Origin: Escherichia phage KEP2
DNA length: 64,000 nt
Sequence record: PP047752
Direction: 5' to 3' (one strand)
The position numbers and the translations under genes were made by a program. Under the pieces are notes generated by a model. The model was not told where the DNA came from. It did not search any database and saw only the letters and a list, made by a program, of their open reading frames with translations. This document shows positions 1-20,011 of this stretch, in pieces (the stretch's first letter is position 1; each line of letters starts with the position of its first letter).

Positions 1-3109
<3,109 letters not shown>

Positions 3110-14109: not shown

Positions 14110-15210
14110 TTACTCATAATCCCTAATAACGAGGCCAACAGGGAACTGTAAAGAACCCTTACGAGTCATCTTCTGGAACTGAACAGTTAAAGGTTTCCCG
14201 ATAAACTCTTCAGGATGTTCAGCAAGATACTGTTTCTTCTCGTGTGTAGTTTTCCATGAAACATCTACAAAGACGTTAGGAAGAGTCTCTACAACAAACT
14301 TGCCATGACCACGTTTGTCAGTTTTTACACCAGTCACTTTAAACTCTTCCGTGTGCATCTTCTTGTGCTTAATCAAGAAGTATGAACGGTGACAACACTC
14401 ATAGAAGGAGTCTTCAGAGATTGAACGGTACATTGCACCTTCAAACTTAGCTTCAACCCACTTATCATGAGCTTCATCAAACTCCTCCCAAGAGTTCACA
14501 CGGATAGTCTGTACAGGAACCACTCTACAGGTATCACCAAGCTCAATAATGGGTGAGTTATCAATAACTTCACGACGCTCAGGCCAAGTTTTTGAATTGT
14601 CACAGATATCATACCAGTAGAATTTAAGAAGGTGACGTTCTGGGTTGTCAGTATTCTTAATCATAGACACAATATCTTCTAAGTCCCAACCGTGAGCATA
14701 AATCTCACCATCAAAGTCTTCGACTTGTGGATGCAATTTAAGCAACAAAAGCAAATCTGGGATTAGCTCTGCTGGTACGTTGTAAACAGTATTCTCACGA
14801 GAATAAGCCGTGAAACTAACTAAATCAGCATCTCTTGAAATTCTACAACGGACACCATCAAGTTTCGGTTGAGCATCAGCAGGGAACTTCAGATACTTTG
14901 CATGACTAACCTTTGCAGCATCATGAGCAAGCTGCACACCTACCTTTTCAGTATTCTGTGCAGACTCTTTTGTATAAGCATAACCTTTGCGGTCAACTTG
15001 CTTTTTGTACTTAGCAGTAACTTCAAAGAGAGCTTGCTGTTCAGCATTACGCTCATTCTTTTTACCGATGTTTTTAGGTTCTGCTGTATACTCTTCAAAC
15101 ATCATCTTGCCATTTTCTTTACCGTAGGTTGTAATGACTTTGTCACCTACAGCAACGCATGACCAGACGTTAAAAGAACCATCTTTATTCTGTTTGTATA
15201 GTATTGTCAT
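14110..15210 (-). CDS. ATP-dependent DNA ligase
   Basis: Motif I KLDGVR (adenylation lysine); start re-called to MTILYKQ to avoid overlap. Confidence 0.75.
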   Translation of the reverse strand: MTILYKQNKDGSFNVWSCVAVGDKVITTYGKENGKMMFEEYTAEPKNIGKKNERNAEQQALFEVTAKYKKQVDRKGYAYTKESAQNTEKVGVQLAHDAAKVSHAKYLKFPADAQPKLDGVRCRISRDADLVSFTAYSRENTVYNVPAELIPDLLLLLKLHPQVEDFDGEIYAHGWDLEDIVSMIKNTDNPERHLLKFYWYDICDNSKTWPERREVIDNSPIIELGDTCRVVPVQTIRVNSWEEFDEAHDKWVEAKFEGAMYRSISEDSFYECCHRSYFLIKHKKMHTEEFKVTGVKTDKRGHGKFVVETLPNVFVDVSWKTTHEKKQYLAEHPEEFIGKPLTVQFQKMTRKGSLQFPVGLVIRDYE

Positions 15211-15211
15211 T

Positions 15212-15403
15212 TTATTCCTCTGAGTGATACCAAGTATTGCAAGCATTACATGCGTAAAGCTCTAAGTCATTTTTATCTGGTTTATGAAAACAGTTTGCTC
15301 CGCAGTGGCAACGAAATGGCTTTCCACCAACTGTAAGGATGAAGGATTGAACCTTTCCATCAGGAGTTCGTACAGCATTTTTATGTTTATCTTCTTTGTT
15401 CAT
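15212..15403 (-). CDS. small zinc-ribbon protein (paralog A)
   Basis: FRCHCGANCFHKPD...CNACN; paralog of 15728..15931. Confidence 0.4.
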   Translation of the reverse strand: MNKEDKHKNAVRTPDGKVQSFILTVGGKPFRCHCGANCFHKPDKNDLELYACNACNTWYHSEE

Positions 15404-15476
15404 TTTATCTCTTGCCTCACAAGCTATGCAACCTTTTGAGTAGAAGTAGTGCCAAGCACAACCATCAAAGCTCTCT

Positions 15477-15731
15477 TTAGTGATTAATTGAATTTACTAA
15501 TTCCATGTGTTTTTCGTAGAAACATAAACATTTTTTATCTTGCTCATTTATGTAGCTCTCATAAAATTCTGGTGATTCTGGTCTTTCACCAAATGAAATA
15601 ACCTTTAGGTAGTACTTCCCATATGTGGAGCTATCTAACCAAGAGTCAAATAGTAATTTCTTAGTATTAGTCTTTGGAGGGATTACCAAACTTTTCTCAT
15701 ACAATTCCTTCATTTCTTGGGTTATCTTCAT
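15477..15731 (-). CDS. hypothetical protein
   Basis: 84-aa ORF between the two zinc-ribbon paralogs. Confidence 0.3.
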   Translation of the reverse strand: MKITQEMKELYEKSLVIPPKTNTKKLLFDSWLDSSTYGKYYLKVISFGERPESPEFYESYINEQDKKCLCFYEKHMELVNSINH

Positions 15732-15931
15732 TGCATATCCTTAATCTTACCTAAGAACCTTACCCCACAGTTATTACACTCGTATGTGTCTAACTTTGTG
15801 TTATCAGGTTTGTGAAAACAGTTTGACCCACAACGACACCGGAATAGTTTACCATCAACACGAAGAATGAACGTCTCAAGCTCACCCTCTTCTGTAAGAA
15901 CTGCGTTTTTCAATTTATCTCCTACAGTCAT
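15728..15931 (-). CDS. small zinc-ribbon protein (paralog B)
   Basis: FRCRCGSNCFHKPD...CNNCG; clear similarity to 15212..15403 product. Confidence 0.4.
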   Translation of the reverse strand: MTVGDKLKNAVLTEEGELETFILRVDGKLFRCRCGSNCFHKPDNTKLDTYECNNCGVRFLGKIKDMQ

Positions 15932-16134
15932 TTTCTTTTACCACCAATCTCTACGTCGATAACTTGAACATCACCAGCAATATCAAACTTATGAATGATG
16001 CTTTCCACAGTATAAGTCCAACCCTCGATTCGAACCAACTCACCCTCTCGTGGGACGATTGGGTTACGTTGAGCTACGGTTGTAGTGGAGTGAACAACAT
16101 CATAACAGTAGATATAGTTTACTAGGACTTCCAT
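15928..16134 (-). CDS. hypothetical protein (start uncertain)
   Basis: ORF track gives 15928..16233; trimmed to internal Met to avoid overlap with lipoprotein gene. Confidence 0.25.
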   Translation of the reverse strand: MEVLVNYIYCYDVVHSTTTVAQRNPIVPREGELVRIEGWTYTVESIIHKFDIAGDVQVIDVEIGGKRK

Positions 16135-16144
16135 CGTGAAAACC

Positions 16145-16381
16145 TCACTCAATAACCGTAGTATGTGATTGACCATTTTTGCCATAACTATAAGATGTTG
16201 TTGTTTGAGAGTTTGGACACCTGACAACAACAATATCTCTGCTTATTGCATCCCCATTTAACTTATAGACTTTGCAATCTTGCATCTCTGGTGGGAGACT
16301 ATAAGAAGCATTTTTGTCCTCGTAAGAGGGATTACAGCCAGATAGAAAGATAACACCAAGCACAATTACTGCTTTCCACAT
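16145..16381 (-). CDS. small lipoprotein
   Basis: Signal peptide with lipobox-like FLSGC; 78 aa. Confidence 0.4.
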   Translation of the reverse strand: MWKAVIVLGVIFLSGCNPSYEDKNASYSLPPEMQDCKVYKLNGDAISRDIVVVRCPNSQTTTSYSYGKNGQSHTTVIE

Positions 16382-16568: not shown

Positions 16569-16796
16569 TCAGAGGTCAATACTAATACGTTCACCTTTAA
16601 GGACTCCTGTACGGTCCCTTGCAATCTTACCGTCAACAATAAGGATATGTGCAGACCTTAAAGATTCACTATTAAAACCTTTTAAGAACTTGCTAGGCAT
16701 CACTACAATACACATCTCCTGAATCAACTCTGGAGTATAGCAGTTGTCGTGAAGTTGCTGAATAACGTCTGCAAGTGTCATTTTTGATGTCTCCAA
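16569..16796 (-). CDS. small protein, paralog family member A
   Basis: C-terminal DGKIARDRTGVLKGERISI matches GGKIAKDKTGYLKGERVDI of 16984..17193. Confidence 0.35.
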   Translation of the reverse strand: METSKMTLADVIQQLHDNCYTPELIQEMCIVVMPSKFLKGFNSESLRSAHILIVDGKIARDRTGVLKGERISIDL

Positions 16797-16987
16797 TACT
16801 CAATGTCAATAAGTTCTTGTGCAATGCTTTTCAGATTACCTTTCAAGAAAACCTTCTCAGAACCTGAAAGAGATGAATTGTCAATTAACCTGCTCATTCT
16901 CTCAAACAACTTCTGCTTACGGTTCTTGATAGTCTCATTTGAAGCACCTTTCATCATCGCTGCATGGGTTCTTCCACGGTGACTCAT
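16778..16987 (-). CDS. hypothetical basic protein
   Basis: 69-aa ORF between paralogs. Confidence 0.3.
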   Translation of the reverse strand: MSHRGRTHAAMMKGASNETIKNRKQKLFERMSRLIDNSSLSGSEKVFLKGNLKSIAQELIDIEYWRHQK

Positions 16988-17193
16988 AGCAAATTCTCGA
17001 TGTCTACACGTTCACCTTTTAAGTACCCTGTCTTGTCTTTTGCGATTTTCCCTCCAGCAATAAAGATATCTGCTATACGCAGAGCTTCAGGGTTTACTCT
17101 ATAACCACTGCAAATAACAATAAGCATGTCTTCAATCTCTTTTTGAGAATAACCTGCACATTGCAACTGAACTTCAATCTCTGAAAGCGTCAT
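16984..17193 (-). CDS. small protein, paralog family member B
   Basis: See 16569..16796. Confidence 0.35.
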   Translation of the reverse strand: MTLSEIEVQLQCAGYSQKEIEDMLIVICSGYRVNPEALRIADIFIAGGKIAKDKTGYLKGERVDIENLL

Positions 17194-17254: not shown

Positions 17255-19954
17255 TTAGTGTACTTCAAGCCAGCTTTTACCAACCTTACCAGTACCTGTT
17301 ACAAGTGTTTCTTTCTTAAGACCTAAGTTCTTAGAAGCTTGTCCATAATACCAGTCAGTAACTGCTTTCACTTCTGCCGTCATACTTTCTGGACATTCCC
17401 AGCTTGTTTCATCGTGATATGCGCAGAGCAAACGAGCACCAATAGCTGGTTTACGACCATTTAACTTCATCAAACCTTCGTCAATCATACGACGACAAGC
17501 AAGGTTAATTGCCTCATTTTGAATCTGAGCCTCTGAACCCATCAAAAGATAGTTCAACAGTTTGTGTGGAGATTTACACCACAACCAAGCTCCAGCAACC
17601 TTTACAAATCCCCCTTTAGAGATTGCAGCGGTCTTACCAAAAACCTCTTCAAGTGCCTTTTTAGTCGCTTTGTAGTCAGCTTCCAAGTCATCTAGCAACT
17701 TCTTAATTTTAGGCAAACGAATAAAGTAAGTCTGTTTAGTCAGTGCACCTTCCTGAGTAGTTGCAGCTTTAATTGTCTTAGCAAACTTCTCATCACCTGC
17801 ACCGAACAGCAGTGCATAGATACCATTCTTAGCTTTTTTACGACCCTTACTAATCTCATGGAGAAGATTCTCATCCTGAGTGGCTCGACAAGTCAAGATA
17901 TCCTGCTCATCATTCAAGCTAAAGTAAATACTGTTCAGTGTGTGTGCATCAGTCCCTGAATAGACAACGTACAGGTCATTCTCAGAGTCATAGCGGAGGT
18001 ACTTATCAATCTCTGGGTTGAGGTACTCATCAAAGTGTTTGCAGTAATAGCGTCCATCTTCTTGACGAATAAACTCAATCTCTTCTTTACCTTGCGTTAC
18101 CGCTTTGGTGAAGTCTTTGTCACCCATAAAGTTACAAAGGAGAACTAGCTGGGCTGAGTTCATGTCTACAGAGACAACATTAGTACCTTCTTCACAAATC
18201 CACACTGCCCTCATTGGTTCCCCATAGACAGCAGCACCAGACGGTACGTTTACAATACCATATTGTGTCATACGTCCAGTTGAAGTACCAAATACCATTG
18301 CACCAGCACTAAGGCGACCATCTGGACGAATCTGGTTTAGCCAACCTTTTTCATCATCCTTTGAGTTCTCAATAGTTCTGCGTCTGTGCATCAAAGTATA
18401 GTACTTAGCAATCTTCTGTCCAAGCTCACCTTCAATCGTATCATAAGATGATTCAGTAAGTTTTGGTGAAGTACGGATTAAGCAAGGCTCAAGCAAATCT
18501 GTGTACTTCTTCACAGACCAGTTATGCTCGATGTACTGTACACCTTCATGTTCAACATAACTCAAACCACACCGCTCAACCATTTCCTGCCACTTAGGAT
18601 GCTTTGTAATCATCTTTTTATTGTCTTTGAAACGACAAACTTTGACAGGGCGACCGTCTGAATCTTTCTTGTAGTTCCAGTCATCTGGAATCCAACCAAC
18701 TGATTTCAAGTAGTCTTTAACAACTGCTACCTGAGTCATACGAGAAACTTCAAACTCAATTGGTGTATATGGTGCATCAATCAATCCTGTGTAGCGACTT
18801 GACTCAAGCTCAAAGTGGTTAACAACATGACTGTTATAGTACTTCACAGTTTTAACTGTTTTTACTGGCTTCCAGTCTTTGCATTTCTTACCAATCTTTG
18901 CATTCAACTCATTGCAAATTGCACGAGCATCCTTCATTGCTACAAAACCTTCCTTGTACTCTTCACCAGTTACAGAGTTGGTTGGTGTATAGCAATTTCT
19001 CTTTTCAATGTTAAAAATCTTTGTAGTTGGCTTACCAAATGGCTTGATTTCATATGTCTGCATCTCACCGTTACGTACCTGCTGACGATACTTTGTCTTA
19101 GGGTACTTGGTAATTCTCTTCAGTCCATCTGCGTGACCAAATGCTTCAACATACTCATTCCAAGCTTTTGCAAACTCTTCTCCAGTGACTTTACCTTTGG
19201 TCTTGATAGTTGGTGGAAGGTGTGGTTCAACTTCTGAAGCAAGCTCATTAGTCAGCTTGTCAAGTTCCTTTACATGGAACTCCATAAGCTCTTTATCAGC
19301 TTTCCAACCATTGATAGCCTGTTGACTCATCCAGAAAGATGTTTCTTTAGCTCGCATGTAGGTTTCATAAGTATCTATGCCACACTTCTTCAGCTTGAGA
19401 TATTCATTATCCAGTGCGCGTTTAGTTTTGGCGTTAATACGGATATCTTCCACAACACGAGTGAAGATTTCTGCATTCCACACACCCCAATGTTCAATCT
19501 CTGGTTTACGTACACCAACACGAGCACCCCATGCTGCCAAGCCATGAGCACCTTTATAACCTTTTGGAGTTGGTCTATCCATCCACTGAACACGAGACTG
19601 GATAAGAGAATCCTGAAAGAAATTACTCCACGGCTTACACTTTGGATTATCAAAGTTCCACAAATCAGGTGCAATGTGATTGAAAACCCACCAGTCATAC
19701 CCCAGACCATTATGGATGCAGAGTCGTTTTGCCTTTAACGCAAACTCAATGCCTTCACGTAAGCCACCCTTAATGTACTTGGTATACTTGTGACCGAGGA
19801 TAGGTTCATCTGTAAAGACCCATACAGGCGGCTCTTCATCGTCAGATTTATAGTCTGCGAAAGCCATTACGTGCACTTTAGTGAACTCAAGGAGTAAACC
19901 ATCAGTTTCTGTATCACCAACTAAATGTAAGTTTTTAAAATCTACGTTTTCCAT
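17255..19954 (-). CDS. DNA polymerase, family A (T7-like) with 3'-5' exonuclease domain
   Basis: N-terminal LVGDTETDGL exo motif; ~900 aa; start re-called to MENVDF with GAGGGAG SD. Confidence 0.85.
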   Translation of the reverse strand: MENVDFKNLHLVGDTETDGLLLEFTKVHVMAFADYKSDDEEPPVWVFTDEPILGHKYTKYIKGGLREGIEFALKAKRLCIHNGLGYDWWVFNHIAPDLWNFDNPKCKPWSNFFQDSLIQSRVQWMDRPTPKGYKGAHGLAAWGARVGVRKPEIEHWGVWNAEIFTRVVEDIRINAKTKRALDNEYLKLKKCGIDTYETYMRAKETSFWMSQQAINGWKADKELMEFHVKELDKLTNELASEVEPHLPPTIKTKGKVTGEEFAKAWNEYVEAFGHADGLKRITKYPKTKYRQQVRNGEMQTYEIKPFGKPTTKIFNIEKRNCYTPTNSVTGEEYKEGFVAMKDARAICNELNAKIGKKCKDWKPVKTVKTVKYYNSHVVNHFELESSRYTGLIDAPYTPIEFEVSRMTQVAVVKDYLKSVGWIPDDWNYKKDSDGRPVKVCRFKDNKKMITKHPKWQEMVERCGLSYVEHEGVQYIEHNWSVKKYTDLLEPCLIRTSPKLTESSYDTIEGELGQKIAKYYTLMHRRRTIENSKDDEKGWLNQIRPDGRLSAGAMVFGTSTGRMTQYGIVNVPSGAAVYGEPMRAVWICEEGTNVVSVDMNSAQLVLLCNFMGDKDFTKAVTQGKEEIEFIRQEDGRYYCKHFDEYLNPEIDKYLRYDSENDLYVVYSGTDAHTLNSIYFSLNDEQDILTCRATQDENLLHEISKGRKKAKNGIYALLFGAGDEKFAKTIKAATTQEGALTKQTYFIRLPKIKKLLDDLEADYKATKKALEEVFGKTAAISKGGFVKVAGAWLWCKSPHKLLNYLLMGSEAQIQNEAINLACRRMIDEGLMKLNGRKPAIGARLLCAYHDETSWECPESMTAEVKAVTDWYYGQASKNLGLKKETLVTGTGKVGKSWLEVH

Positions 19955-20011
19955 TTTTACTCCCTCTAAAATCATTAACCTCATACATTACTGCAAAAAA
20001 TTATAAAAAGC

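What the first reader, a model, noticed from the sequence alone, without database searches (positions are those of the whole stretch)
15212..15931. Duplicated small zinc-ribbon genes flanking an unrelated ORF
The products of 15212..15403 and 15728..15931 (63 and 67 aa) are clearly paralogous: both contain TFIL.V.GK.FRC.CG.NCFHKPD and a C-terminal CN.C cysteine pair. Recent tandem duplication with an interposed gene, beside ligase and polymerase, suggests a small nucleic-acid-binding or regulatory factor under diversifying selection.
Basis: seen in the sequence. Interest (0 to 1): 0.45.

Follow-up and report, generated by a model that had tools for sequence, protein, structure and literature searches.

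The report
Two old zinc-ribbon genes beside ligase
A Felix O1-like phage carries two diverged copies of a small, uncharacterised zinc-binding protein on either side of an unrelated gene; the pair is real but old, conserved rather than fast-evolving, and sits where related phages swap small genes, so it is a fairly ordinary piece of phage mosaicism.

Summary
Two minus-strand genes, 15212..15403 (63 aa) and 15728..15931 (67 aa), are 54% identical over 59 ungapped residues (E 2e-24) and flank an unrelated 84-aa gene just upstream of an ATP-dependent DNA ligase. The window is a Felixounavirus. Both proteins belong to PHROG 5768 (unknown function), a family with at least 369 clusters at 50% identity and no Pfam, NCBIfam or PADLOC model. 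Invariant C32, C34, C52 and C55 and a confident AlphaFold model (pLDDT 88) fit a Cys4 zinc ribbon.

- Synonymous sites between the copies are saturated (pS 0.81).
- Neither copy is the other's nearest relative.
- Each is under purifying selection (dN/dS 0 and 0.06-0.24).

The slot before the ligase gene holds interchangeable cassettes joined at ATGA start/stop overlaps. About 80 phage records have only the copy-1 type and 9 have the two-copy form. phiSUSP1 has only a copy-2-like type, and L27 has only the 84-aa-type gene. Sixty-eight records, including Felix O1, carry a copy2/copy1 recombinant gene.

Function is unknown. My best guess is a dispensable accessory factor of the replication/repair module. 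Interest is low to moderate.

The parts
15212..15403 (-). Copy 1: 63-aa Cys4 zinc-ribbon protein, PHROG 5768, the type-1 allele. Its last codons carry the ligase Shine-Dalgarno sequence (GAGGA), and its TAA stop lies one base before the ligase ATG.
   Evidence: The amino-acid sequence is identical in D4, DE17, pSJ21, EC6 and BPS17W1.
15404..15476 (-). 73-nt spacer between ORF84 and copy 1. In EC6, BPS17W1, L27 and L017 it is the 3' part of an intact 43-aa ORF. In the window that ORF is broken upstream, and the spacer reads in frame into copy 1.
15477..15731 (-). ORF84: an unrelated 84-aa predicted helical protein, PHROG 32421, unknown function and very narrow distribution. Its start overlaps the copy 2 stop (ATGA).
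15728..15931 (-). Copy 2: 67-aa Cys4 zinc-ribbon protein, PHROG 5768, the type-2 allele, with a distinct basic C-terminus (GVRFLGKIKDMQ). Its start overlaps the stop of the upstream gene (ATGA).
15928..16134 (-). Upstream boundary gene of the slot: 68 aa from MEVLVNYIY, PHROG 4427, unknown function. It is conserved in all arrangements.
14110..15210 (-). ATP-dependent DNA ligase, the downstream boundary of the slot. The likely start is MTILYK at 15210; the longest ORF reaches 15246.

Best explanation
The two genes are divergent members of one uncharacterised, widespread phage family of small Cys4 zinc-ribbon proteins (PHROG 5768). They are best treated as two old allelic types. They sit together in this Felixounavirus because the short slot between the PHROG 4427 gene and the ATP-dependent DNA ligase gene is a cassette-exchange site.

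Shown:
- Every arrangement in relatives is joined exactly at AAATGA-type start/stop overlaps.
- The slot holds type 1 alone, a copy-2-like type 3 alone (type 2 itself is never seen alone), ORF84-type alone, or type 2/3 + ORF84 + type 1 as in the window.
- Felix O1 itself carries a single recombinant gene: the 5' 117 nt are type 2 and the rest is type 1. The crossover lies in the conserved NCFHKP core.
- Both copies are under purifying selection.
- No promoter- or terminator-like site lies within 15200..15950, and the gene junctions overlap or nearly abut. The genes therefore appear to be expressed in one operon with the small genes downstream of the DNA polymerase and with the ligase.

Inferred:
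- The two-copy form is the older, fuller state and the single-gene forms are deletion derivatives.
- Each protein folds as an N-terminal beta-hairpin plus a zinc ribbon that binds one Zn through C32, C34, C52 and C55.
- The protein uses its nearly invariant G-x-N-x-F-H-K-P-D loop to dock onto a conserved partner of the phage DNA replication/recombination/repair module, or a host protein that this module meets.
- It is a dispensable accessory factor, not a core enzyme.

The biochemical function itself is not established.
For: Paralogy and family: E 1.6e-40 and 8e-33 to phrog_5768; 369 representatives at E<=1e-3.

Old, not recent: pS 0.81, and cross-scores to unrelated homologues equal or exceed the copy1-copy2 score.

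Purifying selection.

Arrangements. Counts: 9 of 225 records have two copies, about 89 have type 1 at >=90% identity, and 68 have the Felix O1 chimera at >=90%.

Chimera: Felix O1 nt 1-117 are 90-97% identical to copy 2, and nt 121-180 are 100% identical to copy 1.

Junctions at ATGA.

Operon: no promoter- or terminator-like site within 15200..15950.

Dispensable and context: L27 lacks the gene. Homologues lie in replication/recombination early modules with no fixed neighbour.
Against: The direction of evolution is not proven. Two-copy ancestral with repeated deletion, or repeated capture of a second allele, both remain possible. The chimera could also arise by allelic recombination between a type-2-only and a type-1-only phage.

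No partner, ligand or phenotype is known. The 'accessory docking module' statement is inference from context, from conservation, and from 69 of 250 homologues having unrelated N-terminal extensions. Some of those extensions may be gene-calling artefacts.
Confidence: 0.7

Rival explanations
1. Recent in-place tandem duplication that trapped an unrelated gene, followed by diversifying selection on the copies.
For: The two genes are paralogous and lie 325 bp apart on the same strand. Only 9 of 225 records have the two-copy form.
Against: pS is 0.81, which is saturated, and dN is 0.33. The copies are no closer to each other than to homologues from unrelated phages. Each type occurs alone in other phages, and a third type pairs with copy 1 in L017. 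Orthologue dN/dS is 0 to 0.24.
Confidence: 0.04
2. Ligase cofactor: the zinc ribbon binds nicked or broken nucleic acid, or the ligase itself, and helps end-joining. This would be analogous to the zinc fingers of LigA or DNA ligase III but encoded as a separate polypeptide.
For: Copy 1 is translationally coupled to the ligase, with the ligase Shine-Dalgarno sequence inside its last codons and one base between its stop codon and the ligase ATG. Some distant homologues lie near a DNA ligase (L039, L045), an RNA ligase (L036) or a polynucleotide kinase (phiEa21-4). Basic residues at positions 24, 28, 31 and 41 are conserved.
Against: L27 and two related contigs keep the ligase but have no zinc-ribbon gene. 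An 81-kb relative has the gene downstream of the polymerase with no ligase within the 4 kb shown either side. Most other contexts have no ligase. The family is near neutral to acidic. No ligase fusion appears among the 250 homologue sequences retrieved.
Confidence: 0.15
3. Anti-restriction or other anti-defence protein. Two diverged copies, and the alternative ORF84 cassette, would widen the range of host defence variants that the phage can counter.
For: The locus shows presence/absence and allelic variation. Some homologues are fused to a Lar restriction-alleviation domain, one of them next to an Eco57I-type N6 methylase in L029. Others are fused to NUDIX or dATP/dGTP pyrophosphohydrolase domains. 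In Pseudomonas prophages the gene lies in the early-left accessory region between the repressor and the recombination genes.
Against: The near-invariant surface motif across phages of many hosts fits a universal target better than a strain-specific defence protein. Strong purifying selection, and none of the positive selection an arms race might leave, is seen. No match to any described family was found. No literature was found.
Confidence: 0.18
4. RNA-polymerase-binding transcription modulator, acting like TFIIS/TFS4-type zinc ribbons that enter the secondary channel.
Confidence: 0.04

Closest known systems
PHROG 5768 (phage protein family of unknown function); Felix O1 gp Felix01p166 / ORF210
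   Same: Both copies match the profile over its full length (E 1.6e-40 and 8e-33). Copy 1 is identical to proteins annotated in many Felixounavirus genomes, and the exact sequence is seen on 217 contigs.
   Different: Nothing differs; this is the family. It has no described function, structure or Pfam model.
TFIIS / Rpb9 / TFS4-type zinc ribbons (RNA polymerase subunit M family)
Lar restriction-alleviation protein (PF14354)
   Same: A small phage zinc-ribbon protein of early accessory regions. Some family members are fused to a Lar domain.
   Different: The two window proteins do not match PF14354 at E<=1. In the fusions, the Lar domain and this domain are separate modules.
Modular shuffling of small early genes at gene boundaries in phage genomes (lambdoid mosaicism; hyperplastic regions of T4-type phages), from general knowledge
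   Same: Alternative cassettes occupy one slot, junctions coincide with gene boundaries and short shared sequence, and flanking core genes are conserved.
   Different: The repeated junction here is simply the AAATGA start/stop overlap. No promoter-stem-loop element was seen.

Membership tests
PHROG 5768 | Full-length match to the family profile | tested here: met
   Copy 1: E 1.6e-40, residues 1-63 on profile positions 1-63 of 66. Copy 2: E 8e-33, residues 1-65.
Zinc ribbon (Cys4) | Four invariant Zn ligands in two knuckles | tested here: met
   C32, C34, C52 and C55 are invariant in alignments of 45 and 105 sequences and present in 150-152 of 154 representatives.
Zinc ribbon (Cys4) | Beta-hairpin/three-stranded sheet fold resembling solved zinc ribbons | tested here: inconclusive
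Zinc ribbon (Cys4) | Binds zinc | not testable with these tools
   This needs metal analysis of purified protein.
ATP-dependent DNA ligase (the label several GenBank records give the small proteins) | Adenylation domain with a KxDG motif and an OB domain | tested here: not met
   The proteins are 63 and 67 aa and have no Pfam ligase match at E<=1, whereas the neighbouring 366/378-aa gene matches DNA_ligase_A_M. The label appears. A 90% cluster lumps the 72-aa Felix O1 protein with 366-aa ligases, which points to annotation transfer.
Lar restriction alleviation (PF14354) | Match to the Pfam model | tested here: not met
   No hit for either copy at E<=1, and none among 105 family members at E<=0.01. 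Only separate N-terminal Lar domains occur, in some fusions.
TFIIS_C / Rpb9 zinc ribbon | Match to a sequence profile of the family | tested here: not met
   No Pfam hit. The only resemblance is weak structural similarity.
C2H2 zinc finger | C-x2-4-C ... H-x3-5-H unit | tested here: not met
   PDB sequence hits (E 0.0015-0.02) cover only the Y-x-C-N-x-C-G knuckle, and no HxxxH follows.
Recent tandem duplicate | Low synonymous divergence, with the copies as each other's nearest relatives | tested here: not met
   pS is 0.81. Copy 1 scores 84-85 bits to metagenomic homologues against 74.7 bits to copy 2.
Known anti-phage defence proteins (PADLOC) | Match to a PADLOC model | tested here: not met
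   Only a chance-level Cas12f hit at E 0.17.

The most novel reading that the evidence does not exclude
The CxCGxNxFHKPD...YxCNxC zinc ribbon could be an unrecognised, widespread phage docking module. It has at least 369 clusters at 50% identity, from Enterobacteria, Erwinia, Aeromonas and Pseudomonas phages and from jumbo-sized (166- and 332-kb) viral contigs. It would target one conserved host or replisome component, for example to relieve restriction or to assist nick repair. The window would then keep two specialised versions plus an alternative cassette (ORF84) in a slot built for swapping such factors at ATGA junctions.
Probability: 0.15. Interest if true: 0.55.

Novelty: new member of a known kind. 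Interest (0 to 1): 0.25.

Why it matters
The main value is corrective. The pair is an old pair of alleles held in a recombination slot, and it is not evidence of rapid adaptive duplication. The 'DNA ligase' label that several GenBank records give these 63-67-aa proteins is wrong.

Two smaller points may be useful. First, the type phage Felix O1 carries a recombinant of the two gene types, which gives a clean worked example of how paralogues mediate deletion in phage genomes. Second, the family is large, sharply conserved and absent from Pfam, so it is a reasonable candidate for a new domain entry and for a simple knock-out and pull-down study.

Tried and rejected
- Pfam, NCBIfam and PADLOC scans of both copies and ORF84 gave nothing usable. 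A Pfam scan of 105 family members gave only sporadic weak zinc-ribbon hits.
- PDB sequence searches with one sequence and with a profile found only C2H2 knuckle-level matches.
- The ORF84 structure prediction was too poor to search with (pLDDT 56). ORF84 has only two homologue clusters.
- Neighbour analysis of 16 non-Ounavirinae loci, using a Pfam scan of 125 flanking ORFs, found no conserved partner gene.
- Clustering the N-terminal extensions of 69 longer homologues found no shared second domain.
- Literature searches for the PHROG id, and for Felixounavirus with ligase/zinc or early genes, found nothing relevant.
- I considered a natural ligase fusion as the source of the 'DNA ligase' label. 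None appears among the 250 homologue sequences retrieved, and in the SA1 record the ligase CDS merely overlaps the small gene.

Full report
**What is there.** The region is transcribed on the minus strand. Downstream of a family-A DNA polymerase (17255..19984) lies a run of small genes, in this order:
- a PHROG 4427 gene (15928..16134);
- copy 2 (15728..15931, 67 aa);
- ORF84 (15477..15731, 84 aa);
- a 73-nt spacer;
- copy 1 (15212..15403, 63 aa);
- an ATP-dependent DNA ligase (14110..15210, or 15246 for the longest ORF).

Copy 2 starts on the stop codon of the upstream gene (ATGA), and ORF84 starts on the stop codon of copy 2 (ATGA). The ligase ATG lies one base after the TAA of copy 1, and its GAGGA ribosome-binding site sits inside the last codons of copy 1. 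No promoter-like or terminator-like site falls within 15200..15950. The genes therefore look like one translationally coupled operon.

**Check of the observation.** The two proteins are 54% identical over 59 residues without gaps (E 2e-24). A family profile finds no third copy in the 64-kb window.

**Which phage.** Megablast places the window in Felixounavirus (Ounavirinae), with 259 matching records. The best is Escherichia phage DE17, at 92% identity over 97% of a 3.3-kb query. Most records match only about 81% of that query, in two pieces. This was the first sign that part of the region is optional.

**The protein family.**
- Both copies match PHROG 5768 (unknown function) end to end. They have no Pfam, NCBIfam or PADLOC match.
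- An exhaustive profile search found 369 representatives at 50% identity with E<=1e-3, and 86 with E<=1e-10. A second search gave 347 clusters, nearly all unnamed.
- C32, C34, C52 and C55 are invariant or nearly so across 154 representatives. N37, F39, P42 and N53 are present in 143-152 of the 154, and H40 in 136 (about 88%), which gives the motif F-R-C-x-C-G-x-N-x-F-H-K-P-D ... Y-x-C-N-x-C.
- AlphaFold2 with a 105-sequence alignment gives a confident model of copy 1 (pLDDT 87.9) made only of short beta elements.
- I conclude that this is a Cys4 zinc ribbon with an N-terminal hairpin and that it belongs to no described family. Zinc binding itself is untested.

**The pair is neither recent nor diversifying.**
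- The proportion of synonymous differences between the copies is 0.81, which is saturated, and dN is 0.33. DNA identity is about 40-80% in 30-nt windows.
- Among orthologues of copy 1 from six genomes there are 0 non-synonymous and up to 5 synonymous differences. Copy 2 orthologues give dN/dS 0.06-0.24.
- Copy 1 scores 84-85 bits against metagenomic homologues P0169, P0211 and P0170 but only 74.7 bits against copy 2. Copy 2 likewise scores higher against P0211, P0158 and P0172 than against copy 1. With about 60 residues this is not a robust tree, but it gives no support for a sister relationship.

**The slot holds interchangeable cassettes.** Reading the same interval in related genomes gives five arrangements between the PHROG 4427 gene and the ligase:

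| Type | Content of the slot | Examples |
|---|---|---|
| A | Type-1 gene alone, identical in amino-acid sequence to copy 1 | D4 and many E. coli phages |
| B | One 72-aa chimeric gene | Felix O1, UAB_Phi87 |
| C | Copy 2 + ORF84 + copy 1 | the window, pSJ21, DE17, EC6, BPS17W1 |
| C' | Third N-terminal type + ORF82 + copy 1 | metagenomic contig L017 |
| D | ORF82 alone, no zinc-ribbon gene | L27 |
| E | Third type alone, with a copy-2-like C-terminus, directly before the ligase | phiSUSP1 |

Of 225 phage records with a family member:
- 9 have two places, that is, two copies;
- about 89 have a type-1 gene at >=90% identity, including those 9;
- 68 have the Felix O1 chimera at >=90%.

ORF84-type genes occur in only 11 records. 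In every arrangement the first gene of the slot begins at the same ATG, which overlaps the upstream TGA. The other junctions are also AAATGA-type overlaps or near-overlaps.

**Felix O1 carries a recombinant.** Nucleotides 1-117 of the Felix O1 gene are 90-97% identical to copy 2 and about 57-73% identical to copy 1. Nucleotides 121-180 are 100% identical to copy 1 and 40-67% identical to copy 2. The switch lies in the shared AAACTGTTTYCAYAAACC (N-C-F-H-K-P) core. A single crossover between the two paralogues in a type-C genome would delete ORF84 and give exactly this gene. Allelic recombination between a type-2-only and a type-1-only phage would give the same product.

All single-gene forms can be derived from the two-copy form by deletion between direct repeats: the paralogous core, or the AAATGA junctions. 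I therefore favour the two-copy form as the older state. This is inference.

**Clues to function.**
- Context is not conserved. In Erwinia phage phiEa21-4 the homologue lies between an NrdA-like gene and Vs.1/polynucleotide kinase. In Aeromonas phiA050 it lies between the RNA polymerase and SSB genes.
- In Pseudomonas aeruginosa prophages it lies in the early-left region between the repressor and Erf/RecT-YqaJ-SSB. In an 81-kb relative it is downstream of the polymerase with no ligase within the 4 kb shown either side. Elsewhere it sits among AAA_24, SNF2 helicase and PolA genes.
- A Pfam scan of 125 flanking ORFs from 16 unrelated loci shows replication and recombination genes but no recurrent partner. 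A DNA ligase is near in L039 and L045, and an RNA ligase in L036.
- 69 of 250 homologues have N-terminal extensions of 40 residues or more. These are unrelated to one another and include Lar, NUDIX, dATP/dGTP pyrophosphohydrolase and RyR domains.
- The domain is on average slightly acidic (median net charge -1).
- L27 shows that a viable phage can lack the gene.

Together these point to a dispensable accessory module of the DNA replication/repair region that docks on a conserved partner. They do not identify that partner. Ligase cofactor and anti-restriction roles remain open rivals.

**Annotation note.** Several GenBank records call these 63-67-aa proteins 'DNA ligase'. They have no ligase domain. 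In one 90% cluster the 72-aa Felix O1 protein is lumped with 366-aa ligases. The label looks like annotation transfer.

**Verdict.** The finding is a real paralogue pair from an uncharacterised zinc-ribbon family. It is old, conserved and sits in a cassette-swapping slot. The arrangement is already present, unremarked, in published genomes. Interest is low to moderate.

Noticed in passing
window 16984..17193 and 16569..16781 (minus strand), flanking 16778..16987: A second pair of paralogous small genes (69 and 70 aa, 43% identical, E 7e-17) flanks an unrelated 69-aa gene. This is the same 'paralogue - X - paralogue' pattern, 1 kb upstream. Felix O1 lacks the first member and has an HNH endonuclease gene after the polymerase instead.
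   Followed up: partly
window 15404..15476; L007 (EC6) 2701..2832, L008 2701..2832, L006 (L27) 2701..2832, L017 5374..5505: In EC6, BPS17W1, L27 and L017 a 43-aa ORF (MFRFLRK...GCAWHSFYSKGCIACEARDK) overlaps the 3' end of ORF82 and ends on the ATG of the next gene. In the window its 5' part has stop codons, and one extra A puts the spacer in frame with copy 1. Whether it is a real gene or a relic is unknown.
   Followed up: partly
L006 (Escherichia phage L27) 2501..2832; also 'Campylobacter phage' A126 and A132 records: These genomes have an ORF84-type gene (48% identical) in the slot and no zinc-ribbon gene. The ligase ATG sits exactly where the copy 1 ATG sits in EC6. The two 'Campylobacter phage' records and 'Staphylococcus phage SA1' (marked UNVERIFIED_ORG) carry Felixounavirus-like sequence and look mislabelled.
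   Followed up: partly
GenBank records DE17, pSJ21, BPS17W1, GSP193, adrianh, warpig, SapYZU01: The 63-67-aa zinc-ribbon proteins are annotated 'DNA ligase' although they have no ligase domain. In the protein collection the 72-aa Felix O1 version shares a 90% cluster with 366-aa ligases.
   Followed up: yes
window 16145..16381 (minus strand): A 78-aa protein with a lipoprotein-like N-terminus (…LSGCNPS…), PHROG 902. It has a chance-level resemblance (E 0.21) to Cor superinfection-exclusion proteins.
   Followed up: no
L005 (pSJ21), L006 (L27), L008 (BPS17W1) 1..1430 compared with window 17255..19984: In these relatives the DNA polymerase is annotated as two CDS followed by an HNH endonuclease gene. 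In the window it is a single 909-aa ORF with no HNH gene downstream.
   Followed up: no
L029 3568..5168 (332-kb viral contig): A Lar + zinc-ribbon fusion protein lies directly downstream of an Eco57I-type N6 DNA methylase gene. This is the only context seen that hints at an anti-restriction role.
   Followed up: no
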